From a virus (Duplodnaviria; Heunggongvirae; Uroviricota; Caudoviricetes), in the IMG/VR virus record IMGVR_UViG_2841729706_000003, positions 41,668 to 105,667 of that record: DNA of 64,000 nt; one strand, given 5' to 3'. The translations under genes and the position numbers were made by a program. Below the pieces are notes generated by a model, which saw only the letters and a list, made by a program, of their open reading frames with translations, was not told where the DNA came from and did not search any database. The first letter of the stretch is position 1. Every line of letters starts with the position of its first letter. Below, one piece after another: positions 6,138-58,569 of the stretch.

Positions 6138-6863
6138 TCACGCCGCCACCCTCATGTTTTCGCGTTCCGCCATCAGCATTCGGAAAGTGTGCAGGAAGTA
6201 CAATTCCGCAGTCTCTGGGGGCCAGTATTGAAGTTCGATGCCCAAGGGATCATCGTGCTTTGTATGCCAAGGCATGGGCGCCATATTGGCCAGCTCATCA
6301 GCGATAATCCGTGTATCGGCCTCATGCACCTCGGCGGGCATCACTGGTGGCAGGTCGAATGTTTCACAGACGGCAGCCATTACGTTCATCTCTGCGGCCT
6401 TGTAGTCACGTAGATGCCGCTTCAGAGGGCGCGGCACGTCGACCAGGTATGCTTCGCTGGCGTCATGCAACAGAGCCCACAGAGCCGCCTTGTTGCCGTA
6501 GTGCTCGACAATCCAGCGAGTCATCAGTACCGAGTGTTCCGCCACGCTGTAAAACTTATGGCAGTGGCCCGCATATCGGCATTGCAAGCTCAGGCTGTGC
6601 GCAATATCCTCGATGCAGATTTCATCAGCGCGTGGATCTAGCGGCCAGAACTTCTTGCCGGTGTACGTCTGCATGAAGTCGCCGTGGCGACTATCGTTGG
6701 CTGGCGGTCCGGCAAGCGGGTTGTTGCAGTCCGGGATCCAATACACCGTATGGTCACCTTCCGGCGAGCCAAGGTCAATACCAACAGTAAGCGGCCCAAA
6801 CGTCTCCATCGGCGTCAGATCATGCTCGACGTATCGGCGGGCGACGCTGTCCCAGTGTTTCAT
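6138..6863 (-). CDS. HD-domain phosphohydrolase (YfbR-like 5'-deoxynucleotidase family)
   Basis: HD signature ...FYSVAEHSVLM...ALLHDASEAYLVDVPRPLK... consistent with COG1896-type HD hydrolases. Confidence 0.5.
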   Translation of the reverse strand: MKHWDSVARRYVEHDLTPMETFGPLTVGIDLGSPEGDHTVYWIPDCNNPLAGPPANDSRHGDFMQTYTGKKFWPLDPRADEICIEDIAHSLSLQCRYAGHCHKFYSVAEHSVLMTRWIVEHYGNKAALWALLHDASEAYLVDVPRPLKRHLRDYKAAEMNVMAAVCETFDLPPVMPAEVHEADTRIIADELANMAPMPWHTKHDDPLGIELQYWPPETAELYFLHTFRMLMAERENMRVAA

Positions 6864-7198
6864 CGATTCCGCTCCTCTAGTCCGCAGGCGCGCATTGCCC
6901 GAAACAACAGATCGTAAACACCGCGTCGTGTTCGATGGTGCCCTTCGGCAAGCGCGACTACCATTTCTTCGTCTTCACCGGACGTGGCGCCATTGACAGC
7001 ATTGTCGCCAAACGTGAGGGAACCCTTACGCCATGCGGCACGAAGGGCGCCGGCGAAAGGTGGTGTCTTTTTCATAGCAACGGCATAATCCGCCGTGCCG
7101 TCAGGCCTCGTGAGAACGTTGGCTATTTCCATTATGCCTATAGTTCTCGCGCGGTCTTCACTCCCGCCTGGAAGCAGGTCGAAGGTCACTCGTATCAT
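6860..7198 (-). CDS. Hypothetical protein
   Basis: From internal Met MIRVTFDLLPGG of ORF 6860..7642; preceded by CCACCACCGAGGAGAGATTTCA-ATG TIR motif. Confidence 0.4.
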   Translation of the reverse strand: MIRVTFDLLPGGSEDRARTIGIMEIANVLTRPDGTADYAVAMKKTPPFAGALRAAWRKGSLTFGDNAVNGATSGEDEEMVVALAEGHHRTRRGVYDLLFRAMRACGLEERNR

Positions 7199-7263
7199 TG
7201 AAATCTCTCCTCGGTGGTGGTTCGCCTGCTTGGTAGGCGGGCGAAGTTTGGTGGTTGGTTGAC

Positions 7264-7566
7264 TTAGCCGGGATACGTTTCGGCGTAGGTGTACCCTGGC
7301 CAGCAGATCACTCCGCCCGCATGCAAATTCACACGATGTGGCGCACCGTCGATACCGAACGCGTACCGAAGCCATGCCACGATCAGTCGCCAATTGGACG
7401 GTGTTCCTTCTAGATGTTTCGTTTTCTGTCTGATGCGCCACACGAACCGCGCCGAATTGATTACGTGCTTCAGGAAGAGCAACCCAAGAGCCGCGAAAAG
7501 CAACGCAACAACTAACAACACCGCCCACCCGACAACGAGAGCAACTGAGGTCATCGACGACATCAC
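7264..7566 (-). CDS. Small membrane protein
   Basis: N-terminal hydrophobic helix SVALVVGWAVLLVVALLFAALGLLFL. Confidence 0.4.
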   Translation of the reverse strand: MMSSMTSVALVVGWAVLLVVALLFAALGLLFLKHVINSARFVWRIRQKTKHLEGTPSNWRLIVAWLRYAFGIDGAPHRVNLHAGGVICWPGYTYAETYPG

Positions 7567-9455
7567 GCCACTGCCCTCCTTGGTTCGTTGTCATTCGCGG
7601 CTTGCACGCGGAGAACGGGGCGTGCGGCTCGCCACTTGCCATTCTGCAGCGTGATCAAAGTGCGCTTGCCGTTGGGATACTGGACGATGTGCGCAACAGC
7701 CCACGAACTCGGCCCTTTGTTGTAGCCATGGCGCAGGTTCATCGCTCCAGCGCAGTACACGCCGTCCATGATTTCAGGCGAATGCTTGTCGCCGATCGAC
7801 ATCTTCCGGCCGATACGCGCGAAGCCAGAGATTGTGCCCTTCGAACCGTTCGCGCCTCTAAACCCATGGTTTCCGCATTCCACGCCGTCGACAACGAAGC
7901 TCGCGCCGTCATGAACCCACTTCACGCCATCCAGTCCATCGTCGGACAGCATGCGCACGGCGGCCTCTAGCAGGCTGAATGTCGGCACGGGCTCGCCCGC
8001 GTCGAGAGCCTTCGCCTGTGCCTCCCGTGCGGCCAGGTAGGCGTCATCAAGCTTCAGGCCGTATCGGACGTTGATGCCGTCATTCCTGTACCGACCTTCC
8101 CGAATGTATCGTTCCAGACCTAGGTCGTGATTGCTCTCGACCACCACAGGAGTGATGCCGGCGCGCCGAAGACGCGTGAGGAACCTAGCCACGGCCGCAA
8201 CTTCATCCATAACGCTATCTCGACCACGCACAGCCATTTCATAGAAATGGGCGTTGTCGTTGGCGTGGTGATGGCTTCGCGTTTCGTTGTCGAAGACGTC
8301 GTGCGCCATCACGACGTCTGGCTGCAGCGTGTCGATCACATTGTCCCGGTACGTGGTGGTGGTGTCCGTGCCAAAACCGAATGTGGCGAGGGCGTTTTGA
8401 TGGTCAAGCTTGCGCTCATGGACGTCACCGCACACTACGGCCCGAACTTTGTGACCAGTCGATACCTTCCCGTTGGAGACGAAGATATCTAGGTCGTAGA
8501 ATGACCCATCATCCGCCGCGCTGATTTGGCGTGGGAAGATATCGCCGACGGCGTCAAACTCGACGATCGTGGCGCCAATGATGTGATGAAAGATGCTCTT
8601 AATTCCAGCCTTGCGCGGTATGACCTTCGGCTGCGTAACCGCCCCCGTTGTCATAACCTGATGCGCCTGCACGGCGGGATCGGTCGACGGAACCGACTTC
8701 AGCTGAAGCTTGGCATGTGGGAATACGGCCCATCTGCCGCGGCTGTACGTGACAAGATCAGAGATTGGTCGCGCCGCGGTGGGTAGTGTGTTCATCTCGC
8801 CAGCGAAAATGAAGTTTCCGCCGACTTCCATCTGGCCGAATGCGATGAAATCCTGAATGAGCGGCGAATACTGCCGAGAGGTCGGGGAGTTTTCGTTGAA
8901 CCAAGAGGTTTCGTAGGTCCAGGGGCCGACCACTATTTCCGCGCCGATGTGGGCTGCGAACGCGCGAAGGTTTGTCCAGAACTGCTCATGGACTGGAGCG
9001 TCGTTCTGCGCCCCGGTAAACAGGTATTTCCGATTTCGGCAGTCGGCCACAGGGGCGACGCGAAGGGTGTCAGATACCCACGTTTTTGGCGCTCGTTCCG
9101 ACTCGACGTAGTCTTCCTCGTTCCGGTCATACCTAAGACCGGTTTGCGCCTCGACATGCACTGCCTCTGGATTGATGAGAGGGTAACGAGTCCCGGTCAT
9201 CATTTCCACGAGCCACTCCCGCATAGTCTCGGCTCGTGCCGAGGCGTGCTGCCCGGCTGACTTCTTTGTCGTGGTGGCTACAGGTAAGACAGGGTCGGCC
9301 AGCAACCCCTGTGCCGTTGCCCGCTTGATGCTGTCCTGTAGCGCGCCGCGTGACAAGCCCAAAGCCAAGGCTGTTTTGGACTGGTTGCGATCGTTGGCCA
9401 GATACGCAGAAACGCGCGCAGCCAGAACTTCGTCTGGAATCGGTGGTGTTGGCAA
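7563..9455 (-). CDS. Large protein with N-terminal HTH-like region and C-terminal calcineurin-like metallophosphoesterase domain
   Basis: Metallophosphatase motifs VVCGDVHE, AHDVFDNE and VVESNHDLG in order. The N-terminus NDRNQSKTALALGLSRGALQDSIKRATAQGLL looks like a sigma-70 region-4 type HTH. Confidence 0.5.
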   Translation of the reverse strand: MPTPPIPDEVLAARVSAYLANDRNQSKTALALGLSRGALQDSIKRATAQGLLADPVLPVATTTKKSAGQHASARAETMREWLVEMMTGTRYPLINPEAVHVEAQTGLRYDRNEEDYVESERAPKTWVSDTLRVAPVADCRNRKYLFTGAQNDAPVHEQFWTNLRAFAAHIGAEIVVGPWTYETSWFNENSPTSRQYSPLIQDFIAFGQMEVGGNFIFAGEMNTLPTAARPISDLVTYSRGRWAVFPHAKLQLKSVPSTDPAVQAHQVMTTGAVTQPKVIPRKAGIKSIFHHIIGATIVEFDAVGDIFPRQISAADDGSFYDLDIFVSNGKVSTGHKVRAVVCGDVHERKLDHQNALATFGFGTDTTTTYRDNVIDTLQPDVVMAHDVFDNETRSHHHANDNAHFYEMAVRGRDSVMDEVAAVARFLTRLRRAGITPVVVESNHDLGLERYIREGRYRNDGINVRYGLKLDDAYLAAREAQAKALDAGEPVPTFSLLEAAVRMLSDDGLDGVKWVHDGASFVVDGVECGNHGFRGANGSKGTISGFARIGRKMSIGDKHSPEIMDGVYCAGAMNLRHGYNKGPSSWAVAHIVQYPNGKRTLITLQNGKWRAARPVLRVQAANDNEPRRAVA

Positions 9456-9491: not shown

Positions 9492-9782
9492 TTAGGACGG
9501 CTGCCCAGCAGGCTTGTCGGTCCAGTATTTGCCCGACTGAAGCAGGCAGGCCATGCCGTCAGTGCCAACCGCCACCGCGGACCATGTTTCGCCGCCGGGA
9601 GATACGAAGATGACCAGGGCGACTTTATCGGTGGCAACTCCGTAGCTTGCGGGAGTTTCGTTGAACTCCGACTTCAGAACCGAAGCCATCGCCGAAGTTG
9701 GGGCGCAGTTCGGGTCATCGGCAAAGGCGGGAAATGCACTGAGGGATAGAGCGGCAATTGCCGCCGCAAAAATCTTCCACAT
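9492..9782 (-). CDS. Small secreted protein (signal peptide, two Cys)
   Basis: From Met MWKIFAAAIAALSLSAFPAFA (cleavable signal-peptide-like); preceded by CACCACATCGAGGAGCTACC-ATG TIR motif. Confidence 0.45.
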   Translation of the reverse strand: MWKIFAAAIAALSLSAFPAFADDPNCAPTSAMASVLKSEFNETPASYGVATDKVALVIFVSPGGETWSAVAVGTDGMACLLQSGKYWTDKPAGQPS

Positions 9783-9950
9783 GGTAGCTCCTCGATGTGG
9801 TGATCTACGGTTGGTAGCCGTAGGTGGTGGTGTAGTCAGTGGTGTAGGTTTTGGTGATTCCAACATTGGATTATTTTGTTACATTTGTCAATGTTGTTGT
9901 AGCCTAAGCAATAAAAAAGCCCCGCCACCTTGCGGCAACGGGGCTTATGG

Positions 9951-11637: not shown

Positions 11638-12498
11638 ATGAAAATCAGGATTTTACTGACGGCTGCTGCCGCACTTCTGTCCAATTCGGCTTTCGCCGAG
11701 GACGCTTCCACTTTCGCTGGTTACTACGGTGGCGCTACTCTTCACCTAGGAAAAACCAAGGACGTCGCTTATGATGCCTGGTACGACCTCGGCGAAGGTT
11801 GGATCGACCGAAACTTTCAAATGGAAAAGCCAGCAGTCGGTCTATTCGGTGGATATAACCATGAAGTAAGCGGCTTTCTGGTTGGCATCGAAGCTTCGCT
11901 CCGGGCGGACACCAGTTCACAGGACACAGCGGCAACCGAATCCTACAAGACGAACTACGTGTGGCCTGACATCGGAGACGAGGTGAACGAACTCGTAACC
12001 AGCGGTGAAACTGGCGTGGCCAAAATAGACATAGGGCCGTACCGAGCAGGAACCACCACCAAATCGTGGACAGATTACAGAGAAACCGCTTCACCCATGA
12101 TCTCAGCGCGCGTCGGAGCAGCTTTTGGTGACGTCATGATTTATGGAAGGGGTGGTCTTGGTGCGTCAGTGCTTTCCGTCCGCAGGCACACAACATCAAC
12201 GGACACCAATTGCCTCGCCGGAATTACTGAGGTGGAATATTCACCACTCCATGCCTCATGGGGGCAGCCAACCTGCGTGGCCACCTCTTTGTCAGAAAGC
12301 GCGACGGCAACAAGCAAAACGTCTCGAGTGGCACCGAGCGTGTCAGCTGCAATTGGCGCGGAGTACAACTACGGAAAATACTTTGCTCGGGCCGAGGCCG
12401 AAGTCAGCCACATCTACTGGGGCAGCGACTTATTCCCAAATGGTGACTCTGGCGCCACCAAGTATCAGCTAGGTCTAGGAGTGGGCATCCGCTTCTAG
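11638..12498 (+). CDS. Outer-membrane beta-barrel protein (OmpA-like/Omp25-type porin family), signal-peptide-bearing; lysogenic-conversion candidate
   Basis: Start MKIRILLTAAAALLSNSAFA (signal peptide); alternating amphipathic beta-strand pattern; C-terminal ...GLGVGIRF ending in Phe; opposite strand to the flanking lysis and tail genes. Confidence 0.55.
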   Translation: MKIRILLTAAAALLSNSAFAEDASTFAGYYGGATLHLGKTKDVAYDAWYDLGEGWIDRNFQMEKPAVGLFGGYNHEVSGFLVGIEASLRADTSSQDTAATESYKTNYVWPDIGDEVNELVTSGETGVAKIDIGPYRAGTTTKSWTDYRETASPMISARVGAAFGDVMIYGRGGLGASVLSVRRHTTSTDTNCLAGITEVEYSPLHASWGQPTCVATSLSESATATSKTSRVAPSVSAAIGAEYNYGKYFARAEAEVSHIYWGSDLFPNGDSGATKYQLGLGVGIRF

Positions 12499-12502
12499 CC
12501 GA

Positions 12503-23685: not shown

Positions 23686-23715
23686 TCAGATATGAAAAAG
23701 GCCGCTCTTGGCGGC
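23686..23715 (-). promoter_or_regulatory. 30-nt stem-loop plus U5 element immediately upstream of the major tail gene (copy 1 of 2)
   Basis: Coding-strand sequence GGCCGCCAAGAGCGGCC TTTTT CATATCTG, identical to the copy upstream of the major capsid gene. Confidence 0.5.
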
Positions 23716-23745
23716 CGATGTGGTGGGAGTTTTTGGTGCTGAGAG

Positions 23746-27198: not shown

Positions 27199-27230
27199 CC
27201 AGATATGAAAAAGGCCGCTCTTGGCGGCCA
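27199..27230 (-). promoter_or_regulatory. 30-nt stem-loop plus U5 element immediately upstream of the major capsid gene (copy 2 of 2)
   Basis: Identical 30 nt GGCCGCCAAGAGCGGCCTTTTTCATATCTG followed by GGAGATACC-ATG of the capsid gene. Confidence 0.5.
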
Positions 27231-34311: not shown

Positions 34312-34386
34312 TGGTCAGGATGGCCGGACTCGAACCGGCGTTCCGAGCTTCCAAAGCTCAGCGATTAGCCACCATCTTCCACCCTG
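34312..34386 (-). tRNA. tRNA-Pro (anticodon UGG), phage-encoded, 3' CCA encoded
   Basis: Cloverleaf by eye: acceptor CAGGGTG/CATCCTG (one G-U pair), anticodon stem TGAGC/GCTCG with loop TTTGGAA (U33, UGG, A37), T-arm GCCGG-TTCGAGT-CCGGC, discriminator A, CCA. Atypical G8 and a weak D-stem. Confidence 0.5.
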
Positions 34387-36297: not shown

Positions 36298-36443
36298 GCC
36301 GCCTCCCTGATGAAATCTTCTTCGAAGAGTTCGTCCTCGAATTTCTCCTCATCGTAATAGTCGTGGTCGAACTCGCCATCTTGATTGATGCGATAGACTT
36401 CCGGGTCTTTACGATTGTCATTAATTGCCTTGGGTGGCATTTC
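36297..36443 (-). CDS. Small acidic protein (48 aa)
   Basis: Unlisted ORF MPPKAINDNRKDPEVYRINQDGEFDHDYYDEEKFEDELFEEDFIREAA preceded by CCACCACATGAGGAGACAAGAA-ATG. Confidence 0.3.
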
Positions 36444-36497
36444 TTGTCTCCTCATGTGGTGGTTGGCTTGGTGGGCCAGACTCGCGATTGGTAATCG

Positions 36498-37070
36498 CTA
36501 GATAAGGTTGGATAGTTTTGTTGGTGTTGTCAATGTTGTTGCGCTGTTTGTAGCCTCGACTTCCCGGTCATTTGCGGCTATCCACGATCGCACCAAGGCA
36601 ACTGCCTGCTCCGCTGCGTCTTCCTTCGTCACAGCCCGGACTACCGTGATGTCGTGGCCGATCTTGGCTAGGGCTGGATGACGTTCCTTCTGGCTATCCG
36701 TAAGGTTTGCGCGGCCAACCTTGTTTTCGAACATCTTGATCCGCCCGTCGAGGAGATAAATTCTGACGTCGGCTTCGCCTGGCGTCAGGCCAGCCGCGAT
36801 GGCCTCGACCTGCGCACGTGGGCCACGCTTGGCGGAATTCATGTCGCCGGCCAAAAGGAACTGCTTGCCGTATTCAGGCATGCGGCGGAGGGCGAGAACC
36901 TGGGCAGCCTGCAGTTCCCATTCGAGAGGCAAAGCCTTGGAGGTGGTGACACGACCATTGCGGGTTGTGATTTTGGTTCGGACGCCGTTTATGCGGACGG
37001 TCTGGGTCGTGGTGCGGGCCGTGGGCTTACGGGTGGTTTTGGGGGTGGTGGCTGATGTGGCTTTTGCCAT
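36498..37070 (-). CDS. Hypothetical protein
   Basis: 190-aa ORF with Thr/Lys-rich N-terminus, immediately downstream of the AT-rich tract. Confidence 0.4.
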   Translation of the reverse strand: MAKATSATTPKTTRKPTARTTTQTVRINGVRTKITTRNGRVTTSKALPLEWELQAAQVLALRRMPEYGKQFLLAGDMNSAKRGPRAQVEAIAAGLTPGEADVRIYLLDGRIKMFENKVGRANLTDSQKERHPALAKIGHDITVVRAVTKEDAAEQAVALVRSWIAANDREVEATNSATTLTTPTKLSNLI

Positions 37071-39742: not shown

Positions 39743-39952
39743 ATGGCCCCGAAACGCAACCCCATGAAGCCCCGCGAAATCGTCAAGATGCTCCGCGCGG
39801 ACGGATGGGAGATTAAGCGTAAGGGTCCGGGGGATCATGTGCAGTACGCGCACCCCACTAAGCCCGGTAAGGTCACGGTGGACATGGGCGTCACGGAATT
39901 TCCGACTAAGACGCTTAAGTCGATCTTCACACAGGCGGGATGGGACTGGTAA
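39743..39952 (+). CDS. hicA: HicA toxin (mRNA interferase)
   Basis: KPREIVKMLRADGWEIKRKGPGDHVQYAHPTKPGKVTV matches the HicA/YcfA G-x-H-x4-HP signature. Confidence 0.6.
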   Translation: MAPKRNPMKPREIVKMLRADGWEIKRKGPGDHVQYAHPTKPGKVTVDMGVTEFPTKTLKSIFTQAGWDW

Positions 39953-39989
39953 GTCCCATCTTCCCGTCGGCTAACCAAGGAGACAGAGA

Positions 39990-40517
39990 ATGCCATTGGC
40001 TTATGCTCTCATTCACGAGGAAGGTGGCAGTTTTGGAATCTCGTTTCCGGATTTTCCTGGCTGCATCTCTGGCGGGTCTACGGCCGAAGAGGCAATCAGG
40101 CGCGGGAGCGAGGCGCTAAGTTTCCATGCGGCTGGAATGGTCGAGGACGGCGATGCGCTTCCAATGCTGCGGTCTCTTAGCGAACTTCAAAGCGATGCTG
40201 CATTTTCGGAAATGGCGCGTGACGGTGTCCTTGCTATGGTACCGTTCGAAATTCCCGGCAAGTCGGTTCGAATCAACATCTCCATGGACGAACATCTAAT
40301 CGAGATGATCGACCGAGCCGCGGCGGCATCCGGAAAGAGCCGATCAGGGTTTCTTGCCCATGCCGCCAGATCGACCCTCACGCTTGGTGATGTAAGCAAT
40401 GAGGTGATCAAGTCGGGCGGATCGTCTCGCACAACTATAGTTCGCGATGCAACAAGTGGAAAATTCGAGACCATCAGCCCTCGGTCAAAACGCGTTGCGG
40501 AAAAAAAGAAGGCTTAG
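39990..40517 (+). CDS. hicB: HicB antitoxin (N-terminal UPF0150 fold plus C-terminal ribbon-helix-helix)
   Basis: MPLAYALIHEEGGSFGISFPDFPGCISGGSTAEEAIRRGSEAL plus C-terminal RINISMDEHLIEMIDRAAAASGKSRSGFLAHAAR. Confidence 0.6.
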   Translation: MPLAYALIHEEGGSFGISFPDFPGCISGGSTAEEAIRRGSEALSFHAAGMVEDGDALPMLRSLSELQSDAAFSEMARDGVLAMVPFEIPGKSVRINISMDEHLIEMIDRAAAASGKSRSGFLAHAARSTLTLGDVSNEVIKSGGSSRTTIVRDATSGKFETISPRSKRVAEKKKA

Positions 40518-42052: not shown

Positions 42053-42136
42053 TCAAAATCTCCTCTATGCCGATGTTTTTCGGCGTGGTGCCGCGCAGTT
42101 GGTGTCTGGGCGGGTGGTGTGTGGCCGCCGATGGCG

Positions 42137-43160: not shown

Positions 43161-43210
43161 GTCTTCTCCTCAGTGGTGACCCGCTTGGTAGACGGGTTGT
43201 GGTGTGGTGG

Positions 43211-44323
43211 TTAGGCTACCCAACGTGCGCCGTGCAATGCGCGGCTTTCGTCGACCTTCGTCTGGCTGGTGGTGTTTGCAGCGATGCGAGCGCGGATGAC
43301 TTCGCGCGCCTCTTGGCCTGCGCGGACCATGAAGGCAGGTGACCGTAGATCAACAGGCAAGCGTGGGATGGCCTGAAGCGCAAAGTCTTTCTGTGGGAGA
43401 TTACTGTTCGCTGCCACGAAGTCGGCAAGGTCGTCGGCTCGACGCTTCACACCAGCCTCAACCGATGCCGCATATTCTCGCGCCGCATCGGCGTCAGCTT
43501 CATCAAGCAGCGGCAAGACGTCATCCAGGCCACCTGACAGAACAAGCGCTAGGATGTTCTTTTCCTGCAATATACTGTCTTTGGCGCGGTGTTTCAGAAC
43601 ATAGTCTTCGCCCTTTGCCTTAACCATCGTGCCGTCCTCGAATCGGACAACAAATCCCTCGGCGCCCTGTATTGCTCTGGCGTAGGCGAGGAATTCTGTG
43701 GCTGTGGTGTGTTGGGGCGTGTGGTGCTCGACCAAATCAATGCACGATTCACGAGAGAATGCCCATTGGAGTGAAGTTGGCAGATACTCGCCAGACGCGT
43801 TCTTTCGGATGGCAAGAAGAGTAAGGTCACTACGATCGTAGCGAACCACAATGCGGTTATCCGGAGCCGTCCACTCAAAGATTGGTGTCGCGCCGGCCTC
43901 CAACATGGCGTGACAGGCGTTTCGAAGCTTGGAAGTGATATGCCGCTCCGCCCTAACCGCATGATCGGTTCGCCCCATGCGCGTCATGAAGACCACTTCG
44001 CCATTGACGATCGCAGGATGGATCATCGAGCCGTCAAGCTTCTCCATGATTGTGTGCGGCCGACTGAAATCCAGAACATGAGGCTGCGTTTCTGGCCGCT
44101 CTCCGACGTTGAAGAATTTGTGAAACGGGCGAGCCAAAATTCTGCCATCGGGCGCAAACTTGATGCCGCGGCATTCTAACCGAGCCGGGTGGTCGAAGCT
44201 GTCAGGCAACGCGTAAACGTAGTCGATGACAGTGTAATCGCCCTTGTCGGCGACTACGAACTCCTGCCTGCCGTCGAGGTGCGGAAGAACATCGTCAATG
44301 TGGTTGATGCGGAAGTGGGTCAT
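43211..44323 (-). CDS. RNA ligase, Rnl1-like nucleotidyltransferase
   Basis: Motif I MEKLDGSM (KxDG), motif IV EGFVVRFEDG, motif V VLKHRAKD; about 370 aa from Met MTHFRINH; overlaps the end of the kinase-phosphatase gene. Confidence 0.55.
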   Translation of the reverse strand: MTHFRINHIDDVLPHLDGRQEFVVADKGDYTVIDYVYALPDSFDHPARLECRGIKFAPDGRILARPFHKFFNVGERPETQPHVLDFSRPHTIMEKLDGSMIHPAIVNGEVVFMTRMGRTDHAVRAERHITSKLRNACHAMLEAGATPIFEWTAPDNRIVVRYDRSDLTLLAIRKNASGEYLPTSLQWAFSRESCIDLVEHHTPQHTTATEFLAYARAIQGAEGFVVRFEDGTMVKAKGEDYVLKHRAKDSILQEKNILALVLSGGLDDVLPLLDEADADAAREYAASVEAGVKRRADDLADFVAANSNLPQKDFALQAIPRLPVDLRSPAFMVRAGQEAREVIRARIAANTTSQTKVDESRALHGARWVA

Positions 44324-45255
44324 GCAGCCTCTCTCCACTCGCCAACGCGCATATCCACGACCGAAACATTCGGCAGGCCATCACCCGCAAGAATGTCACG
44401 CAAGGCGGACTGCATGCGCTCGTGGTGCACTTCGACCAGCGTCTTATCGCCGATCAACACTTCGTTGCGCCAGCCAGCCGTCGCCTTCTTGTCGGCAAGC
44501 GGTCGATCGACAACAACATAGGAAATGGCAGAACCGACTGGCGCCAGCGACACGCACGCCAAACGGTCCCGCCTGCGAAGGTTGGTGGCGTCGATGCATA
44601 CCGAAAGCCCGCTATCGAGCCGAGCCTTTGCGATTCGATGCAGGGCAGTGAAAACGTCTTCGTTTCGCGACTGGTCTTGAAAATTGCCAGTATATTCGGC
44701 ACGGAGATCGTCGCTCGAAATGTATCCTGGCAAGCCCTTAGCGTATTTGGTCTTGCCCGCTCCGCTCGGACCCACCATCAAGGTCAAGAGCGAGCCGTCA
44801 TGAACAGGCGGAATTATCCGCCCTTCGTCCTCCCAGTTGGCGACAACCTGAAAGCAGGGAATCCCTTCTGCCCGCCACATATCGACCACGCGCTGCCGAT
44901 CGTCGTAAACGAGGTCAGGCCGCCCGTGTTCCTGCGACAACCAGTAGCGCTTCAGAACAGCGTCTGGCGTGCTGTCTCCTGCTGCCCGCATGTGCTGCAG
45001 GTAGCAAGGGTCAATGCCCATATCGGAAAGCCAGTTTTCGGTTTCGGCTCGAACGACGTCGCTGCGGGCCGACCAAATGCGAACTTTGTGGCCAGCGCGG
45101 AGGTGTGCGTGAAACGTCTCGATGACGTGAGAAACGCCACGATCAAAGACGCATTCACGGAAGAACGCCGCCCAATCTTTCTTGCCGCCGCGGACGTGGT
45201 GCACGCGATGGCCGATATCGGCAATAGTGCCGTCTAAGTCAAAAATGACGAACAC
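44320..45255 (-). CDS. Polynucleotide 3'-phosphatase / 5'-kinase (Pnkp) with HAD phosphatase N-terminal and P-loop kinase C-terminal
   Basis: HAD motif I FDLDGT, motif IV VYDDRQRVV, and Walker A GPSGAGKT in the C-terminal half; GTG start after CACCACCTGAGGAG. Confidence 0.6.
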   Translation of the reverse strand: MFVIFDLDGTIADIGHRVHHVRGGKKDWAAFFRECVFDRGVSHVIETFHAHLRAGHKVRIWSARSDVVRAETENWLSDMGIDPCYLQHMRAAGDSTPDAVLKRYWLSQEHGRPDLVYDDRQRVVDMWRAEGIPCFQVVANWEDEGRIIPPVHDGSLLTLMVGPSGAGKTKYAKGLPGYISSDDLRAEYTGNFQDQSRNEDVFTALHRIAKARLDSGLSVCIDATNLRRRDRLACVSLAPVGSAISYVVVDRPLADKKATAGWRNEVLIGDKTLVEVHHERMQSALRDILAGDGLPNVSVVDMRVGEWREAA

Positions 45256-45402
45256 GCTAAATCTCCTCAGGTGGTGAATCCGGATTGGTAGTCCGAATTT
45301 GTTAGATTTGTTATCTTTGTTGGATTCGTAGCGTCAAGTCAAGCGCTGGCCTGCCTTTTGCCGAGAAAAGAATAGGGACACACCGTTTGTTACAACAGCA
45401 GG

Positions 45403-47172: not shown

Positions 47173-47194
47173 TCACTTCTCCTCAGTGGTGGTA

Positions 47195-48154
47195 TTAGGC
47201 GGCTTTGGTGGAGCCGCCTTGGGTATTGTCATTCGCCGCGCCGTCGGTCCAAATGGTGCCGTTGCGCATGCGGTAGGTGATCACCTCGTTTTCCTCATCG
47301 ACGTCGATCTGCTCACCGTCGACAAGACCGGGTAGGAACAGATGTGCAGGGCAAGCAGCCTTTTGTTCATCGACCGACAAAGGCTTCGACCAGCGAGCGC
47401 ACGAAATATGACAATCGCCGCCACGCTCTGGCTGAACGTGCAAGCATGATCGACAAGTCACGCGCGGTTGCGCGCCCTCCTGGCACACTGCATGGTGTTT
47501 GCAGAACATTCCTCGAAAGTCGTCGGGCTTGGTGCAAATGCCTGTAGGTGGCTCGTCGCTGAAAACTATACGTTCGGCACGAGCCAGCTGGCGAAGGCAG
47601 AATTCTACATCGTATTCCAAGCGCTCCACGTACCGACTATCGTCGTTTTTGTTCGTTACGTAATAGAGGCAACGCGTAAGCCCGAACATGTGCATGCCGA
47701 TCTGGCATTGGGCGAAGTGCAAGGGCTTGGCCTTACGGCATCCGTCCTTGACGATGAGTTTGAAACCCTTGTCGTTTGAACTCTTGAACTCGCAGAGGTG
47801 TTCGGTCTTGGGGGCCTCGGGAATACCGAGAGCCTTGCCATCGCACTTGCCGCGGACGAATCCATGGACAAGGCGAATGCGATCCTGCTGGCCCCAAACC
47901 TCCACGCCGATACGCTCGAGGTCCGCGACCATGACCTCTTCCCATCTATCACCGGTTCGGAAGATTGATAGCTTTCGGCCGTCGATCTCCTCTGGTTTGC
48001 TGGCCCAGCGAAAGCCGTACCAAAGCGCACGATCGCACTCAGTGCCTATCTCCCCGACACTTATGCCGAGGCTATCATAATGCTTGTTGGCGGCTTCGTA
48101 GGCGCGGTAAATCGCGCCTACGGTGCTTGCTGTTGGTTTTGGGATGGGGGCCAT
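47195..48154 (-). CDS. PD-(D/E)xK nuclease, Cas4/RecB-like, with C-terminal Cys cluster (possible Fe-S)
   Basis: ...ECDRALWY..., ...HLCEFKSS..., and four spaced Cys CTKPDDFRGMFCKHHAVCQ...C; assignment by motif pattern only. Confidence 0.45.
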   Translation of the reverse strand: MAPIPKPTASTVGAIYRAYEAANKHYDSLGISVGEIGTECDRALWYGFRWASKPEEIDGRKLSIFRTGDRWEEVMVADLERIGVEVWGQQDRIRLVHGFVRGKCDGKALGIPEAPKTEHLCEFKSSNDKGFKLIVKDGCRKAKPLHFAQCQIGMHMFGLTRCLYYVTNKNDDSRYVERLEYDVEFCLRQLARAERIVFSDEPPTGICTKPDDFRGMFCKHHAVCQEGAQPRVTCRSCLHVQPERGGDCHISCARWSKPLSVDEQKAACPAHLFLPGLVDGEQIDVDEENEVITYRMRNGTIWTDGAANDNTQGGSTKAA

Positions 48155-49741: not shown

Positions 49742-49796
49742 GGTGTCTCCTCATGTGGTGTGGTGCCTGCCGTTGGTTGCGGCAGGCAGGTTGGGG

Positions 49797-50405: not shown

Positions 50406-50459
50406 TTTTGCTCTCCTGATGTGGTTGGCGCGGGCTGGTGAGACCCGCGCCATGTTTAG

Positions 50460-51086: not shown

Positions 51087-51136
51087 TCATATTCTCCTAG
51101 TGTGGTGATGTTTGCGCTTGGTGGGCGCGGGGTGGT

Positions 51137-52584: not shown

Positions 52585-52637
52585 GTTTTGAAACTCCTCA
52601 GTGTGGTGGGTTGAGCTAGTTGGTGGCTAGATGGTCG

Positions 52638-53495: not shown

Positions 53496-53698
53496 TATTT
53501 TCTCCTCTTGGTGGTGGTTTTTGCTGGTGCGAAGTAGGTGACAACGCCCAGTGCTACAAAGGCGGCGACAACGCTGCCGCCGATGAGTGCAAGAATGCCC
53601 ATGGCTCTATCCTTGAATGAGCAAGTGCAGCCCGTAGGCCATGGTCATGGCAGCCAGCATTGCCAGGCATGGCCACCATGAGAACGGGTCGGGCGCGG

Positions 53699-54900: not shown

Positions 54901-54963
54901 AGCTTCTCCTCTGTCCGCCTGCCGTTGCCGGGCAGGCGGGGGTGGTGTGATGGTTGGTGTTGG

Positions 54964-56094
54964 TTAGGCGGCGGTGGCCAGCCAGTACTCGACGGCGTCT
55001 TTGGCCTCCTTCAGGCCGATGACGAACCGCTCCTCATACCCGGTTCGGTAGCCGTACTCCGAGGATACGAACGTCTGACGCTTGCCGCCCGCATCACGAT
55101 AGGCCTTGATTGCCTCGATGCGCTTGCCTTCAGCCGCAAGCCGCTGCCATTCGTGGGCATAGGCTGGCTTTTCTTCCCGCTTGGTGGAGACAAGAGTGTA
55201 AACGCCGAACTCGCTACCCTTGTGCTTCTTGGCCAGGCGCGCTGCTTCGCGTTCGGCGAAAGCCGCCGACGAGTGAACGTGCGGTCTGACACTTGGGAGC
55301 GGCTGGCCGTTCTCGATGAGGCAGACGATGGCGGGTTTAGATGCGGACGGAGTGACGAGCTCAAAGTAGCGATCAAGGTCACCCATCCACGGATACTCAC
55401 CGTGATAGCTGCGCCATTCCATCGGCCCGACCTTGCGACCGTCGCGGGTCTTGTAGAACTTGCCGGCCTTAATGGTTAGGGCGGTGGCTGGTGCCAGTTT
55501 TAAATACTTCATTGGGATGCTTGGGCCGTCGCCGCCAGGAACGGCACTGTAGCTTGCGTAATCGTGTCCAGCATCGGTGATGTAGAAGTGACCGGCATAT
55601 TCACCAGCGCGGCGCCAGTGTTTGTTCCAGTGCTCGACAAGGTCATTTGCGCATTCTACTGACTTGTCCTGCACTACAGCGTCACCGACTTTGAAAGGCG
55701 CAGCAGGAGCAGGTTCGATCTGATGAGTCCGCAAGTACTGATTGTGGCCATTGAAGAGGTAGCCAGTGCCGCCCTCGCCATCTCCACATGTGCGCTCGAT
55801 GACGTATTCCACACCGACTTCATACTGGGTGATTTTGCTTCCGGAGCGCGTCGTGTTGTCTACAACCCGCACCCTGTCCCCGACTTTGAACGCGGGTATG
55901 AGTTCAATCTCGCCGTCAGGGCGGTAGAAATTCCAGCGACGCCGGCTTTTGCCGTGCCCCGCAAACGGGGCGTCCATTTCAACTCCGGCACGACCAAAAT
56001 CAATCTCGGCGACTGTCCCAAGCTGCCCTGGCGTAGCACGGCCATAGCCGTCCGTTACCACCTTGACCCGATCTCCAACCTTAAACTTTCCCAT
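54964..56094 (-). CDS. Early protein with three KOW-like (FKVGDRV-K/R-VV) beta-barrel repeats and a C-terminal ribosomal-L7/L12-CTD-like segment
   Basis: Repeats FKVGDRVKVV (aa 4), FKVGDRVRVV (about aa 69) and FKVGDAVV (about aa 135). C-terminus ...LAAEGKRIEAIKAYRDAGG...IGLKEAKDAVEYW closely parallels L7/L12 ...[32 protein letters not shown]... Confidence 0.55.
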   Translation of the reverse strand: MGKFKVGDRVKVVTDGYGRATPGQLGTVAEIDFGRAGVEMDAPFAGHGKSRRRWNFYRPDGEIELIPAFKVGDRVRVVDNTTRSGSKITQYEVGVEYVIERTCGDGEGGTGYLFNGHNQYLRTHQIEPAPAAPFKVGDAVVQDKSVECANDLVEHWNKHWRRAGEYAGHFYITDAGHDYASYSAVPGGDGPSIPMKYLKLAPATALTIKAGKFYKTRDGRKVGPMEWRSYHGEYPWMGDLDRYFELVTPSASKPAIVCLIENGQPLPSVRPHVHSSAAFAEREAARLAKKHKGSEFGVYTLVSTKREEKPAYAHEWQRLAAEGKRIEAIKAYRDAGGKRQTFVSSEYGYRTGYEERFVIGLKEAKDAVEYWLATAA

Positions 56095-56125
56095 AATATT
56101 CTCCTCTTGTGGTGAGCGCGGGTGG

Positions 56126-56413
56126 TTAAGCCGCTCCCTTGGTTTTGGTGTTCTTGTCCAGTCGCACCTTCTTGGTGAAATCGACCGGGATCACGTTGTC
56201 ACCGCTGCCACCGCCATGGAATTCGTCGTTCTCCACGCGATGAAGCTCCCATTCATGGAACGCCAGAACAGCCAGCGAAGGCGAAACGCGGATGTAGACA
56301 AGAGACCCAGCGAAGCCGATTACGATGCCGAACACACTGGTGTTCATCTTGTGCTCGACGACATCACCGAGTTCAAAGAATTCATCTTCAGGCGGCATGG
56401 GCAGCCTCCACAA
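56126..56413 (-). CDS. Hypothetical protein
   Basis: 95-aa ORF. Confidence 0.3.
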   Translation of the reverse strand: MWRLPMPPEDEFFELGDVVEHKMNTSVFGIVIGFAGSLVYIRVSPSLAVLAFHEWELHRVENDEFHGGGSGDNVIPVDFTKKVRLDKNTKTKGAA

Positions 56414-56651: not shown

Positions 56652-56766
56652 TGAACTCCTCGATGTGGTGTTGACAAAGCGTTGGTTACGCGCCATGTCT
56701 TTTGCGCCCGCTGTGGTGGCGGGTAGGAACGCAGGTGGGACTCCTCTTACCTTCTAGTACGAGATC

Positions 56767-57700: not shown

Positions 57701-57796
57701 ATTCACCAGTCGTACAAATCTAACAAATCGTTGTTGACTTTGTCGAGTTGGTAGCATACAAATCTCCTCACCAAACCACCACCGAGGAGATTCGAA

Positions 57797-58114
57797 ATGC
57801 TAAAGGCGCTAGCCACCCATCTTAAGCGAGACGCGGTTTTCTATACTGCTCTCGCCGTTCTTTCCGGCTCGATGTTGGTCGCCGGGACGTTGGTAACGAA
57901 GGCCGACGATTTCGAACTGGCCGCCTATTTTGCCGCGCAGGAATATGTCTGCGAATGGCCTGACTATGACGCCAGTGTATCTATCCTGGCGCGTATTGTT
58001 GCCGCCGGAACTCCCGAAGATATCGCAATAGAAGTCATCGCCGACGAAGCTTGGGCTCTCGTTGAGAGCGGCGACGTCGATTGCGGCGAGTTGCGTGTCG
58101 CGGAGGCGCGATGA
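57797..58114 (+). CDS. Hypothetical protein
   Basis: 105 aa; preceded by CCACCACCGAGGAGATTCGAA-ATG. Confidence 0.35.
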   Translation: MLKALATHLKRDAVFYTALAVLSGSMLVAGTLVTKADDFELAAYFAAQEYVCEWPDYDASVSILARIVAAGTPEDIAIEVIADEAWALVESGDVDCGELRVAEAR

Positions 58115-58296
58115 TGGCCGCCGTGTACCTAGCCGCGTCGTTCTTCGCCGGCATCGCCTTGTCCGTCGCAGTGTTCGGCTGGCCGTTCTGATTTACTGCG
58201 CGTTGCCCCAACACGCAGGCGGGCGGCGTTTGCCTCCAGTGGCGCCGCCCTCTTTTTCCCGGCCTCACCAGCCATCACCACCATCGAGGAGCTACC

Positions 58297-58569
58297 ATGA
58301 CCAATTCACGCTACCCTTCCGTCTATTCTTCCGGATACCCCACCCTTTCCGCACAGGAATTCATCGCTCAGGGCACGAGTGCAGCGGCCGTGTTGTCGAT
58401 CGCAAAGTTTCTGGCGAGCGACCGCGGTAAGCCGGCCAATCCGCGCGCGGCATCAAAGCTTCGAGCCGTCGCGTTCGAAGTGGCCGACCTTACCGGTGTT
58501 CGTCTGCAGGCTTTGCCGCGCGCTGTGAACGACAACCGTAGCCGTCGGCAGTACCGGAGGGCGGCATGA
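58297..58569 (+). CDS. Hypothetical protein
   Basis: 90 aa; preceded by CACCACCATCGAGGAGCTACC-ATG. Confidence 0.35.
   Translation: MTNSRYPSVYSSGYPTLSAQEFIAQGTSAAAVLSIAKFLASDRGKPANPRAASKLRAVAFEVADLTGVRLQALPRAVNDNRSRRQYRRAA

What the first reader, a model, noticed from the sequence alone, without database searches (positions are those of the whole stretch)
6860..58300. Conserved CACCAC-N(1-4)-GAGGAG translation-initiation-region motif on at least 16 early or accessory genes
Reading the coding strand upstream of start codons, the same composite element recurs: CACCAC or CCACCAC, then 1-4 nt, then GAGGAG, then 4-9 nt, then ATG/GTG/TTG. Eleven leftward early-operon genes carry it: cro 56651, the KOW/L12-like gene 56094, the gene ending at 54900, the SPFH gene 53495, the AAA_24 gene 52584, DUF669 51086, VWA 50405, clamp 49741, helicase 47172, Pnkp 45255 and Gp157 43160. 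It is also on the acidic micro-ORF at 36443, on two left-arm cargo genes (9782 and 7198), and on two plus-strand genes after cI (57797 and 58297). Two pairs share near-identical 23-nt versions: CACCAC(C)ATCGAGGAGCTACCATG at 9782 and 58297, and CCACCACCGAGGAGA at 7198 and 57797. Structural genes (terminase, portal, capsid, tail) use ordinary Shine-Dalgarno contexts without CACCAC. The CACCAC box lies 5' of the SD and is not complementary to the 16S 3' end, so it is not an extended SD. It looks like a phage-specific cis element (translational enhancer or operator, binding site for a regulator, or RNA processing signal) marking one expression class of genes.
Basis: seen in the sequence. Interest (0 to 1): 0.65.

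Follow-up and report, generated by a model that had tools for sequence, protein, structure and literature searches.

The report
Phage start-linked CACCAC box and hairpin
A prophage of Mesorhizobium, and its relatives in Rhizobium-type bacteria, place the same small RNA signal (a hairpin with an ACCA loop, the word CACCAC and a strong ribosome-binding site) before most early genes; host DNA lacks it and it has apparently not been described.

Summary
CACCAC-N(1-4)-GAGGAG occurs 13 times in the window against 0.03 expected, always in gene orientation and 4-9 nt before a start codon.

At intercistronic sites a hairpin lies upstream of the box. Its stems covary and its 7-nt loop is conserved (YNACCAA).

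The composite is shared with phages 16-3, RHph_X2_25 and RHph_TM3_3_14B. It also occurs in dozens of related prophages of Rhizobiaceae, Brucella/Ochrobactrum, Devosiaceae and Phyllobacteriaceae.

It is essentially absent from:
- 400 kb of Sinorhizobium and Mesorhizobium replicons;
- six other phages of Sinorhizobium, Rhizobium, Agrobacterium and Brucella that lack this early-gene layout;
- related prophages of Methylobacterium, Bosea and Rhodobacterales;
- Rfam.

So it is not a host Shine-Dalgarno bias. It travels with the 16-3-type early module.

Most likely it is an mRNA-level translation-initiation module: a C/A-type enhancer or standby box, a strong SD and an insulating or stabilising hairpin. 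The near-exact hexamer keeps a dedicated trans-acting factor as a serious rival.

The closest known analogue is the start-associated sequences (SAS/ESAS) of cluster K mycobacteriophages. Function is untested.

The parts
56654..56697 (-). Element before the cro-like HTH gene (start 56651): a 3-bp stem with loop TAACCAA, then CACCAC-ATC-GAGGAG.
   Evidence: Exact motif. Covariance model R1 scores 26.6 bits; this site was not in the training set.
56099..56137 (-). Element before the 376-aa gene with SH3-like repeats and an L12-CTD-like tail (start 56094).
   Evidence: Exact motif. R1 scores 23.6 bits; not in training.
54901..54947 (-). Split variant before the 64-aa gene (start 54900): CACCAC at 54947-54942, a 30-nt spacer containing a GC-rich hairpin, then GAGGAG at 54911-54906.
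   Evidence: Sequence context. Fold -21.5 kcal/mol, z -3.2. R1 scores only 9.1 bits.
53500..53547 (-). Element before the SPFH/Band_7 gene (start 53495): CACCAC-CAA-GAGGAG with an atypical hairpin.
   Evidence: Exact motif. R1 scores 19.9 bits. Pfam Band_7.
52592..52633 (-). Full element before the AAA_24/Sak4-like gene (TTG start 52584): CTAG-CCACCAA-CTAG hairpin, then CACCAC-ACT-GAGGAG.
   Evidence: R1 scores 41.3 bits.
51092..51131 (-). Full element before the DUF669/SSB-like gene (start 51086): GCGC-CCACCAA-GCGC hairpin, then CACCAC-ACT-AGGAG. The SD reads TAGGAG.
   Evidence: R1 scores 40.6 bits.
50411..50449 (-). Variant before the VWA gene (start 50405): hairpin with an ACCA-containing loop, then AACCAC-ATC-AGGAG.
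   Evidence: R1 scores 17.3 bits; not in training.
49745..49786 (-). Full element before the sliding-clamp gene (start 49741): 9-bp stem, loop CAACCAA, then CACCACACCAC-AT-GAGGAG.
   Evidence: R1 scores 52.8 bits. Fold -20.4 kcal/mol, z -4.3.
47177..47218 (-). Full element before the helicase gene (start 47172). The hairpin (8 bp, loop CCACCAA) overlaps the 3' end of the upstream Cas4-like gene.
   Evidence: R1 scores 41.8 bits.
45261..45298 (-). Full element before the Pnkp gene (GTG start 45255): 8-bp stem, loop CTACCAA, CACCAC directly after the stem.
   Evidence: R1 scores 45.6 bits.
43164..43198 (-). Full element before the Gp157 gene (start 43160): 6-bp stem, loop CTACCAA, then CACCAC-T-GAGGAG.
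   Evidence: R1 scores 36.8 bits.
42053..42112 (-). Split variant before the DNA methylase gene (start 42052): hairpin with loop ACACCAA, CACCAC at 42090-42085, a second hairpin, then GAGGAG at 42065-42060.
   Evidence: Fold. R1 scores 11.2 bits over 42085-42112.
36446..36498 (-). Element before the 48-aa acidic ORF (start 36440). Two successive ACCAA-loop hairpins (loops TTACCAA and CCACCAA), then CACCAC-AT-GAGGAG.
   Evidence: R1 scores 44.5 bits, plus 6.9 bits for the upstream hairpin.
9786..9824 (-). Full element before the 96-aa left-arm gene (start 9782): 6-bp stem, loop CTACCAA, then CACCAC-ATC-GAGGAG.
   Evidence: R1 scores 44.5 bits.
7205..7243 (-). Full element before the 112-aa left-arm gene (start 7198): stem with one mismatch, loop CTACCAA, then CACCAC-C-GAGGAG.
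   Evidence: R1 scores 35.4 bits; not in training.
6070..6082 (-). Possible degenerate copy before the 82-aa gene (start 6064): CACAAGAGGAGAG with no exact CACCAC.
   Evidence: R1 scores 9.2 bits, E 0.07. Weak.
57762..57796 (+). Element before the 105-aa gene downstream of cI (start 57797). The CA box (ACCAAACCACCACC) forms the loop of a 9-bp hairpin, AAUCUCCUC/GAGGAGAUU, that sequesters the SD.
   Evidence: R1 scores 20.2 bits. Fold -11.5 kcal/mol, z -4.7.
58259..58296 (+). Element before the 90-aa gene (start 58297): GGC-CTCACCA-GCC hairpin, then CACCAC-CATC-GAGGAG.
   Evidence: R1 scores 16.8 bits.

Best explanation
The element is a modular translation-initiation signal that acts on the phage mRNA. 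It serves cistrons that must start translation independently within long early or accessory operons.

From 5' to 3' it has four parts:
- a stable hairpin with a C/A-only loop (YNACCAA), present at intercistronic sites only;
- a single-stranded tract almost free of G and U, whose fixed word is CACCAC;
- 2-4 nt later, a strong SD, (A/U)GAGGAG, which pairs with the last bases of the 16S rRNA;
- 4-9 nt later, the start codon.

Proposed mechanism (inferred, not shown). The C/A box cannot pair with the purine-only SD or with itself. It therefore keeps the ribosome-binding site open. It also offers the 30S subunit, probably through protein S1, a landing or standby site next to the SD. This is how the C/A-rich and ACA enhancers and CA-repeat standby tails of enterobacteria behave. 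The hairpin would insulate the initiation region from upstream coding RNA and protect transcript segments.

Shown here: the anatomy, the orientation, the tight link to starts, the covariation of the stems, the lineage distribution, and the absence from host replicons.

For: - Enrichment and position. 13 exact copies against 0.03 expected, all sense-oriented. In the window plus three related phages, 52 sites are all followed by a start and an ORF. The distance from CACCAC to RGGAG peaks at 3 nt, with most at 2-4.
- Composition. The 18-22 nt upstream of the SD are C/A-rich and poor in G and T in these phages. They are not so in pSymB genes.
- Hairpin. NNACCAA is flanked by stems of at least 4 bp at 63 of 263 start-proximal sites and at 22 of 850 elsewhere (p = 8e-25). 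There are 44 distinct stems. 87% of cells pair against 44% in shuffles, with 0 of 500 shuffles reaching that. The outer four pairs, which were not used to select the sites, pair in 70-80% of sequences.
- Accessibility. Motif-bearing initiation regions are predicted more open: unpaired probability 0.56 against 0.44, p = 0.001.
- Promoter-proximal sites keep the box and SD but lack the hairpin. This fits a box that serves initiation and a hairpin that serves intercistronic junctions.
- Class restriction in the window.
- Precedent. ACA and C/A motifs just upstream of the SD enhance initiation without strict spacing (PMC3879156). CA-repeat tails act as ribosome standby sites, with S1 the suspected reader (PMC5934652).
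- At gene 57797 the CA box sits in the loop of a hairpin that sequesters the SD. This is a standby-like arrangement.
Against: - The hexamer is far too exact for a merely unstructured C/A tract. Of 425 SD sites, 172 are exact and only 26 have one mismatch. Other C/A-only hexamers such as CCCCCC or AACAAA never occur there.
- If it were a generally strong enhancer for the host ribosome, other users would be expected. Host replicons lack it. So do six other phages of Sinorhizobium, Rhizobium, Agrobacterium and Brucella that lack the 16-3-type early layout.
- The conserved loop sequence has no role in a pure insulator model.
- The accessibility difference is modest.
- No expression data exist.
Confidence: 0.45

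Rival explanations
1. Translational operator for a dedicated trans-acting factor carried by the same early module. A phage-encoded RNA-binding protein, or a small RNA, would recognise ACCA or CACCAC twice: once in the hairpin loop and once single-stranded next to the SD. It would then switch a whole gene class on or off. T4 RegA does this for early mRNAs, and the same has been proposed for mycobacteriophage SAS.
For: - The word is nearly invariant: 172 exact against 26 with one mismatch.
- It is absent from host replicons and from other phages of Sinorhizobium, Rhizobium, Agrobacterium and Brucella that lack the 16-3-type early layout.
- Lineages have dialects. The window uses CACCAC-N-GAGGAG. 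Phage 16-3 and its close relatives use AGGAGAC. Brucella prophages use ..ACCAACAC-GAGGAG.
- The same ACCA core appears in the loop and in the box.
- Three leading genes of the early operon co-occur with motif-rich loci, in 19 of 20 motif-rich against 3-7 of 32 motif-poor loci. They are the cro-like HTH gene, a 90-aa SH3-like protein, and the 376-aa SH3-repeat protein.
- Orthologues of the 376-aa protein match the Pfam L7/L12 C-terminal domain.
Against: - The co-occurrence is confounded by shared ancestry.
- Mesorhizobium retamae (L203) has the L12-like gene but only a diluted motif.
- No recognised RNA-binding domain was found in the candidates.
- The spacing between hairpin, box and SD varies by several nucleotides.
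Confidence: 0.3
2. RNA processing or stability signal. The hairpin and the U-free tract would define cleavage or protection points that cut the polycistronic early transcript into segments of different stability. The closeness of the SD would be secondary.
For: - Hairpins occur only at internal junctions, not after promoters.
- One hairpin overlaps the end of the upstream gene.
- U-poor tracts should resist RNase E. This rests on my own knowledge of RNase E preference, not on a test here.
- Intercistronic hairpins that set segment stability are known in alphaproteobacterial operons (own knowledge).
Against: - CACCAC is kept at promoter-proximal sites where there is nothing to process.
- The box sits a tight 2-4 nt from the SD.
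- The NCCA register needed for an RNase P-type substrate is not kept. The distance from stem to box varies from 0 to 8 nt.
Confidence: 0.1
3. DNA-level site. It could be an asymmetric protein-binding site that blocks or starts transcription at gene boundaries, like the stoperators of mycobacteriophage L5. Alternatively it could be a promoter for a phage sigma factor.
For: - Stoperators show the same strict orientation with respect to transcription (discussed in PMC3203893).
- A cro-like HTH gene is co-inherited.
- Relatives encode sigma factors.
- Counts of G.U against A.C inside the stems do not favour the sense RNA: 14 against 14.
Against: - The position is fixed a few nucleotides from the SD rather than anywhere in the gap.
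- Stems differ completely in sequence, so there are no conserved half-sites.
- A promoter there would remove the SD from its own transcript.
- No sigma-factor domain was found in any window protein scanned, and this phage lacks the genes that lie between the Cas4-like gene and the helicase in its relatives. It still has the motif.
Confidence: 0.08
4. Recombination legacy. These would be boundary or linker sequences copied between gene junctions by recombination among mosaic phages, with little function of their own.
For: Distant sites in the window share near-identical 15-23 nt versions: 9782 with 58297, and 7198 with 57797. The phages are highly mosaic.
Against: - The element is kept in prophages whose Sak4 proteins are only 30-37% identical.
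- The stems covary.
- The word is exact while the spacers around it vary freely.
Confidence: 0.05

Closest known systems
Start-associated sequences (SAS) and extended SAS of cluster K mycobacteriophages (Pope et al. 2011, PMC3203893)
   Same: - A short asymmetric conserved sequence that contains the SD core plus bases that cannot pair with 16S rRNA.
- It lies a few nucleotides upstream of start codons.
- There are 11-19 copies per genome, in one orientation, mostly on non-structural genes.
- It is absent from the host genome.
- About half of the copies have an additional inverted repeat upstream.
- Its function is unknown and a role in translation is suspected.
   Different: - The sequence is different: GGGATAGGAGCCC there, CACCAC-N-GAGGAG(AC) here. 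The host phylum is also different.
- The non-SD part here is a separate box 5' of the SD with slightly variable spacing.
- The ESAS repeats are conserved in sequence and do not show compensatory changes, so their authors favour DNA binding. Here the stems vary freely and covary, and only the loop is conserved.
C/A-rich and ACA translational enhancers upstream of the SD (the GcvB target sites of enterobacteria), and CA-repeat ribosome standby tails
   Same: C/A-only single-stranded sequence directly 5' of the SD. The position is tolerant by a few nucleotides. The proposed reader is the 30S subunit through S1 (PMC3879156; PMC5934652).
   Different: - Those elements are degenerate (ACA, or C/A-rich). 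Here one exact hexamer dominates.
- They occur in host genes, whereas this element is private to one phage lineage.
- No G/U-rich regulator RNA is known here.
- They have no associated hairpin with a conserved loop.
T4 RegA translational operators and RegB cleavage at GGAG in early mRNAs (review PMC3014915, listed)
   Same: A phage-wide, class-specific signal located in the translation-initiation regions of many early genes. (The details of RegA and RegB are from my own knowledge; I did not read that review.)
   Different: RegA sites are AU-rich and overlap the AUG. RegB needs only GGAG. No homologue of either protein was found among the window proteins scanned.
[quoted passage not shown]
   Same: Many copies of a short asymmetric site in short intergenic gaps, all oriented with transcription.
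   Different: Stoperators are DNA sites for the immunity repressor and are not tied to the SD. The operators of 16-3-type C repressors are ACAA-N4/6-TTGT palindromes (annotation; one such site at 57723-57734), not CACCAC.
Lambda-type nut sites (boxA plus the boxB hairpin)
   Same: A small hairpin with a variable stem and a conserved loop, flanked by unstructured C-rich RNA, in early phage transcripts.
   Different: Lambda has two nut sites per genome, not one per gene. No boxA-like sequence or N-like protein was identified here. The elements here are locked to start codons.

Membership tests
SAS/ESAS of cluster K mycobacteriophages | The 13-bp consensus GGGATAGGAGCCC (at most 2 deviations) | tested here: not met
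   The consensus here is CACCAC-N(1-4)-GAGGAG, or CACCAC-N-AGGAGAC in relatives. Only the AGGAG core is shared.
SAS/ESAS of cluster K mycobacteriophages | Located 3-7 bp upstream of start codons, in one orientation | tested here: met
   All 13 exact copies, and all 52 sites in four phages, are sense-oriented and 3-10 nt from a start.
SAS/ESAS of cluster K mycobacteriophages | Restricted to non-structural genes and absent from the host genome | tested here: met
   Class restriction in the window. There is one exception in a relative, the capsid gene of RHph_TM3_3_14B. Host proxies: 1 hit in 300 kb of pSymB and 0 in 100 kb of pMLa. The host chromosome itself was not scanned.
SAS/ESAS of cluster K mycobacteriophages | Upstream 17-bp inverted repeats that are conserved in sequence and lack compensatory changes (ESAS) | tested here: not met
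   Here the stems are unrelated in sequence and covary. Only the loop is conserved.
C/A-rich or ACA translational enhancer / ribosome standby site | Single-stranded C/A-rich sequence immediately upstream of the SD | tested here: met
   Composition and hexamer counts. Higher predicted accessibility.
C/A-rich or ACA translational enhancer / ribosome standby site | Raises translation initiation or 30S binding; loss on mutation | not testable with these tools
   Needs reporter fusions and toeprinting.
Rfam families (any described RNA motif) | A match at the family's gathering score | tested here: not met
   Only the tRNA-Pro gene scored.
Intrinsic (Rho-independent) terminator | GC-rich hairpin followed by a run of T | tested here: not met
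   The hairpins are followed by C/A tracts, not T runs. T-tract hairpins occur only in the late operon.
L5-type stoperator | Bound on DNA by the immunity repressor | not testable with these tools
   The 16-3 C-repressor operators are annotated as different sequences. The G.U against A.C test was neutral.
Lambda nut (boxA/boxB) | One site per early operon, with boxA and an N-type antiterminator | tested here: not met
   At least 16 sites, each before a gene. No N-like or boxA feature was seen in the proteins and regions examined.

The most novel reading that the evidence does not exclude
The CACCAC box and the ACCA loops form a private translation code. A protein carried by the same early module would read them. 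Candidates are the co-inherited 90-aa SH3-like protein and the 376-aa protein, which has SH3/KOW-like repeats and a C-terminal segment matching the factor-binding helices of ribosomal protein L7/L12. Such a protein would tether ribosomes or initiation GTPases to phage messages, or shut those messages off. The phage would then hold class-wide control of translation independent of the host.
Probability: 0.12. Interest if true: 0.85.

Novelty: new variant of a known kind. Interest (0 to 1): 0.6.

Why it matters
Very few phage groups are known to mark a whole class of genes with a conserved signal in the translation-initiation region. The best example is the SAS of cluster K mycobacteriophages, which is still unexplained fifteen years after its description.

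This is an independent and much more widespread case. There are hundreds of copies in temperate phages and prophages of Rhizobium, Sinorhizobium, Agrobacterium, Mesorhizobium, Brucella/Ochrobactrum and Devosia relatives. It has a clear RNA-like anatomy, and one member, phage 16-3 of S. meliloti, is a genetically tractable model.

- If the box is a ribosome-level enhancer, it is a compact and portable expression part for rhizobia and agrobacteria. It would also be a rare natural example of an exact-word C/A enhancer.
- If it is read by a phage factor, it reveals a new post-transcriptional regulon.

In either case the covariance model gives a practical marker for this phage lineage and for correct start-codon annotation in it.

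Tried and rejected
- Rfam scan of the window: only the tRNA gene scored.
It was of little use, except that it recovered phage 16-3 and a few multi-copy contigs.
- The first genome scan, with a single Sak4 protein, found no relatives. The scan with an alignment worked.
- My own crude GC3-based gene caller was unreliable. I replaced it with NCBI gene calls obtained through the look-up of encoding contigs.
- RNase P-type substrate (hairpin followed by NCCA): rejected because the distance from stem to box varies from 0 to 8 nt.
- Pairing of the loop or box with the phage tRNA-Pro(UGG): only a 4-nt CCAA/UUGG match is possible. I did not pursue it.
- Transition against C-to-A substitution pattern in one-mismatch boxes, as a test for base-pair recognition: uninformative in the Rhizobiaceae-type phages, 11 against 11; in Brucella-type prophages 23 of 25 one-mismatch boxes are C-to-A and 2 are transitions.
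- G.U against A.C asymmetry in the stems, as a test for RNA against DNA: uninformative, 14 against 14.
- Ribosomal L7/L12 similarity of the window's own 376-aa protein: no Pfam or PDB sequence hit. The signal appears only in orthologues.
- An idea from memory, not tested: that CACCAC(C) is complementary to a GGUGGUG stretch in helix 41 of Rhizobiaceae-type 16S rRNA. I consider it unlikely because that segment is base-paired and lies far from the mRNA exit.
- A sigma-70-type promoter upstream of gene 57797: TTGACT is only 12 nt from TAGCAT, so my notebook entry calling it N17 is wrong. The consensus scan did not list a plus-strand promoter there.

Full report
**Where the window comes from.** A protein identical to the 376-aa early protein is named by NCBI as coming from Mesorhizobium sp. 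DCY119. The window maps to the 4.84-Mb chromosome CP031834.1 of assembly GCA_003590645.1. It is almost entirely a prophage.
- A tyrosine integrase gene runs off the right end, from 62825 to beyond 64000.
- A roughly 60-nt stretch at 2387-2452 is 90-98% identical to many alphaproteobacterial replicons. It looks like the duplicated part of a tRNA at the left attachment site.
- The structural genes are 74-78% identical at the DNA level to Rhizobium phages RHph_Y3_1 and 16-3.
- The early region resembles that of 16-3, RHph_X2_25 and RHph_TM3_3_14B.

**The observation.** CACCAC-N(1-4)-GAGGAG occurs 13 times. Dinucleotide-preserving shuffles give a mean of 0.03 and never more than 1.
- Eleven copies are on the minus strand and two on the plus strand. 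In every case this is the strand of the gene that follows, and a start codon lies 4-9 nt downstream.
- I found one more split variant before the methylase gene (42052) and a weak copy before 6064.
- With NCBI gene calls, every co-directional gap of 20-150 nt in the early operon (56651 down to 35395) carries the motif or a variant, 13 of 13.
- The only early genes with a gap and no motif follow gaps longer than 240 nt: the HNH endonuclease, the prim-pol gene and the 190-aa gene.
- Late-operon gaps instead carry hairpins followed by T runs and weaker SDs.

**The element is larger than reported.** Folding the upstream 40 nt shows a hairpin with a 7-nt loop, YNACCAA, just 5' of the box. A scan for NNACCAA flanked by at least 3 paired bases finds 12 on the minus strand. 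Eleven of them sit directly before a box plus SD. The plus strand has only three, each with the minimum 3-bp stem, and none of them lies before a box and SD. The stems share no sequence.

Across the window, three phages and 29 prophage loci:
- NNACCAA near a start is flanked by stems of at least 4 bp in 63 of 263 cases, against 22 of 850 elsewhere (Fisher p = 8e-25). There are 44 distinct hairpins.
- On an ungapped alignment of these, 87% of cells pair, against 44% in column shuffles, and 0 of 500 shuffles reach that. Sliding the partner columns gives 28-38%.
- The inner four pairs were used to select the sites. The outer four were not, and they still pair in 70-80% of sequences.

Sites that follow a promoter-like region (ACAAATTTGT-type sequences in 16-3 and its relatives) keep the box and the SD but have no hairpin. 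A test for G.U against A.C inside the stems was neutral, 14 against 14. The case for an RNA-level role therefore rests on orientation and position, not on wobble pairs.

**Specificity of the word.** The 18 nt upstream of the SD were examined in 408 start sites of these phages and of Rhizobiaceae prophages.
- CACCAC is present at 181 sites, against 7 expected from composition.
- Other C/A-only hexamers such as CCCCCC or AACAAA never occur there.
- Of 425 sites, 172 have the exact word within 7 nt of the SD and only 26 have a single mismatch.
- The distance from the box to RGGAG peaks at 3 nt.
- Lineages differ slightly. The window has GAGGAG followed by A/T. Phage 16-3 and its close relatives have AGGAGAC. 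Brucella/Ochrobactrum prophages have CA tracts ending ...ACCAACAC directly on GAGGAG.

**Distribution.**
- CACCAC-N0-9-AGGAG occurs at 2.5-4.6 per 10 kb in the window, 16-3, RHph_X2_25 and RHph_TM3_3_14B. It occurs at 0.03 per 10 kb (one copy) in 300 kb of S. meliloti pSymB.
- A covariance model of hairpin plus box plus SD (R1, built from alignment A3) gives 15 hits with E below 1e-4 in the window. All are before starts, and seven of them were not used for training.
- The same model gives one hit of at least 20 bits in pSymB and none above 11 bits in 100 kb of Mesorhizobium pMLa.
- It gives 199 hits at E of 1e-3 or better in 83 phage and prophage loci that contain a Sak4 homologue.
- Those hits concentrate in Agrobacterium, Rhizobium, Sinorhizobium/Ensifer, Metarhizobium, Devosia/Pelagibacterium, Pseudohoeflea, Pseudaminobacter and Brucella/Ochrobactrum. 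Their Sak4 proteins are only 30-53% identical to the window's.
- The CM gave no significant hit (E ≤ 1e-3) in loci from Methylobacterium, Bosea or Xanthobacter, and only one among the Rhodobacterales loci (L194, Sagittula, 17.6 bits). This holds even at 50% Sak4 identity (Bosea, L133).
- Six phages of Sinorhizobium, Rhizobium, Agrobacterium and Brucella that lack the 16-3-type early-gene layout lack the element: RR1-A, RHph_Y3_1, PBC5, 7-7-1, phiM9 and Brucella Tb. They have 0-2 pattern matches and one weak model hit in 281 kb. Two of them share single replication genes (a sliding clamp in RR1-A, a Sak4-like gene in Tb).
- RHph_Y3_1 shares the head genes with this prophage but not its early genes.

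The element therefore travels with the 16-3-type early module. It does not track the host alone, and it does not track the structural module.

**What it most likely does.** The SD part, (A/U)GAGGAG, can pair with the last seven bases of the 16S rRNA. That leaves no rRNA for the box.

A tract made only of C and A cannot pair with itself or with a purine-only SD. Motif-bearing initiation regions are predicted to be more open (0.56 against 0.44 unpaired, p = 0.001).

C/A-rich and ACA motifs just upstream of SDs are proven translational enhancers in Salmonella and E. coli. They tolerate shifts in position (PMC3879156). CA-repeat tails act as ribosome standby sites, with S1 as the suspected reader (PMC5934652).

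I therefore favour an mRNA-level initiation module: enhancer or standby box, strong SD, and a hairpin that insulates and stabilises. The leader of gene 57797 fits a standby design. Its SD is locked in a 9-bp helix whose loop is the CA box.

**Why I hold this at only 0.45.** Three features fit a dedicated reader better than a generic enhancer:
- the exactness of the hexamer;
- the conserved loop with the same ACCA core;
- the absence of the element from host replicons and from other phages of Sinorhizobium, Rhizobium, Agrobacterium and Brucella that lack the 16-3-type early layout.

Comparative genomics gives candidates but no proof. The three leading genes of the early operon occur in 19 of 20 motif-rich loci and in 3-7 of 32 motif-poor loci. 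They are the cro-like HTH protein, a 90-aa SH3-like protein and the 376-aa protein. This correlation is confounded by common descent.

The 376-aa family has SH3-like repeats. In 40 of the 120 listed homologues, the C-terminal roughly 28 residues match positions 8-36 of Pfam Ribosomal_L12, just above the gathering score. The window's own copy has a 21-residue insertion there and does not score.

**Comparison with what is known.** The nearest analogue is the SAS/ESAS system of cluster K mycobacteriophages (PMC3203893).
- Shared: the placement, the orientation, the bias to non-structural genes, the absence from the host, and the unknown function.
- Different: the sequence; the box is separate from the SD; and the upstream repeat behaves as a covarying hairpin rather than a conserved DNA repeat.

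It is not a member of any Rfam family. It is not an intrinsic terminator, a nut site or a stoperator by the features I could test. Six full-text searches of the paper library found no description of it in rhizobiophages. I classify it as a new variant of a known kind.

Noticed in passing
window 23687-23716 and 27200-27229 (minus strand): An exact 30-nt repeat, GGCCGCCAAGAGCGGCCTTTTTCATATCTG. It is a terminator-like hairpin plus a T run. It lies just upstream of the major capsid gene (start 27191) and of the Phage_tail_2 gene (start 23672). It may be a late-class signal, distinct from the early CACCAC element.
   Followed up: partly
window 54964-56094 (minus strand) and 56126-56398 (minus strand): The 376-aa early protein has three FKVGDRV(K/R)VV SH3/KOW-like repeats. 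Its C-terminus (IEAIKAYRDAGG...GLKEAKDAVEYW) resembles the factor-binding helices of ribosomal protein L7/L12. Orthologues score on Pfam Ribosomal_L12 at 25-29 bits against a cutoff of 25.9 (four of the five tested reach the cutoff), and some are annotated as L7/L12. The neighbouring 90-aa protein also looks SH3-like from its sequence; Pfam gave no hit for it. Both genes are co-inherited with the motif.
   Followed up: partly
window 57758-57805 (plus strand): The leader of the first gene downstream of cI can fold so that AAUCUCCUC pairs with the SD, GAGGAGAUU (-11.5 kcal/mol, z -4.7). The CA box is then in the loop. Whether the 5' arm is transcribed depends on the unknown start site. Read-through from cI and a local promoter could therefore give messages that are translated differently. 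A 16-3-type operator-like ACAA-N4-TTGT lies at 57723-57734.
   Followed up: partly
window 43211-45255 (minus strand) and 34312-34386 (minus strand): Polynucleotide kinase-phosphatase (Pnkp) and a T4 Rnl1-type RNA ligase lie side by side. This pair is a tRNA-repair system of the kind that counters anticodon nucleases. The phage also carries a tRNA-Pro(UGG) gene.
   Followed up: no
window 32168-33514 (minus strand): An ISL3-family transposase gene is inserted in the prophage between the early region and the terminase genes.
   Followed up: no
window 39743-40517 (plus strand): A HicA/HicB toxin-antitoxin pair lies on the opposite strand, inside the early region. It is flanked by an AT-rich stretch with GU-rich/CA-rich repeats.
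   Followed up: no
window 2387-2452: A roughly 60-nt segment is 90-98% identical to many alphaproteobacterial replicons, although no tRNA is called there. It is probably the duplicated tRNA fragment at attL. The integrase gene is at the other end of the window, from 62825 to beyond 64000.
   Followed up: partly
window 11638-12498 (plus strand): A 286-aa outer-membrane beta-barrel (OMP_b-brl) gene lies on the opposite strand within the tail and left-arm region. It is a likely lysogenic-conversion moron.
   Followed up: no
L121 (phage 16-3), L124 and L125, for example L121 23960-23998 and 32200-32244: A palindromic ACAAATTTGT sequence recurs in promoter-like contexts upstream of several hairpin-less CACCAC sites in 16-3-type phages. 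It differs from the annotated C-repressor operators.
   Followed up: no
L127 44753-44792 (S. meliloti pSymB 344753-344792): This is the single host-replicon copy of the full element (21.3 bits; CACCAC-GA-GAGGAG, with an ATG start 6 nt further on). It may be a phage remnant or a rare host use of the motif.
   Followed up: no
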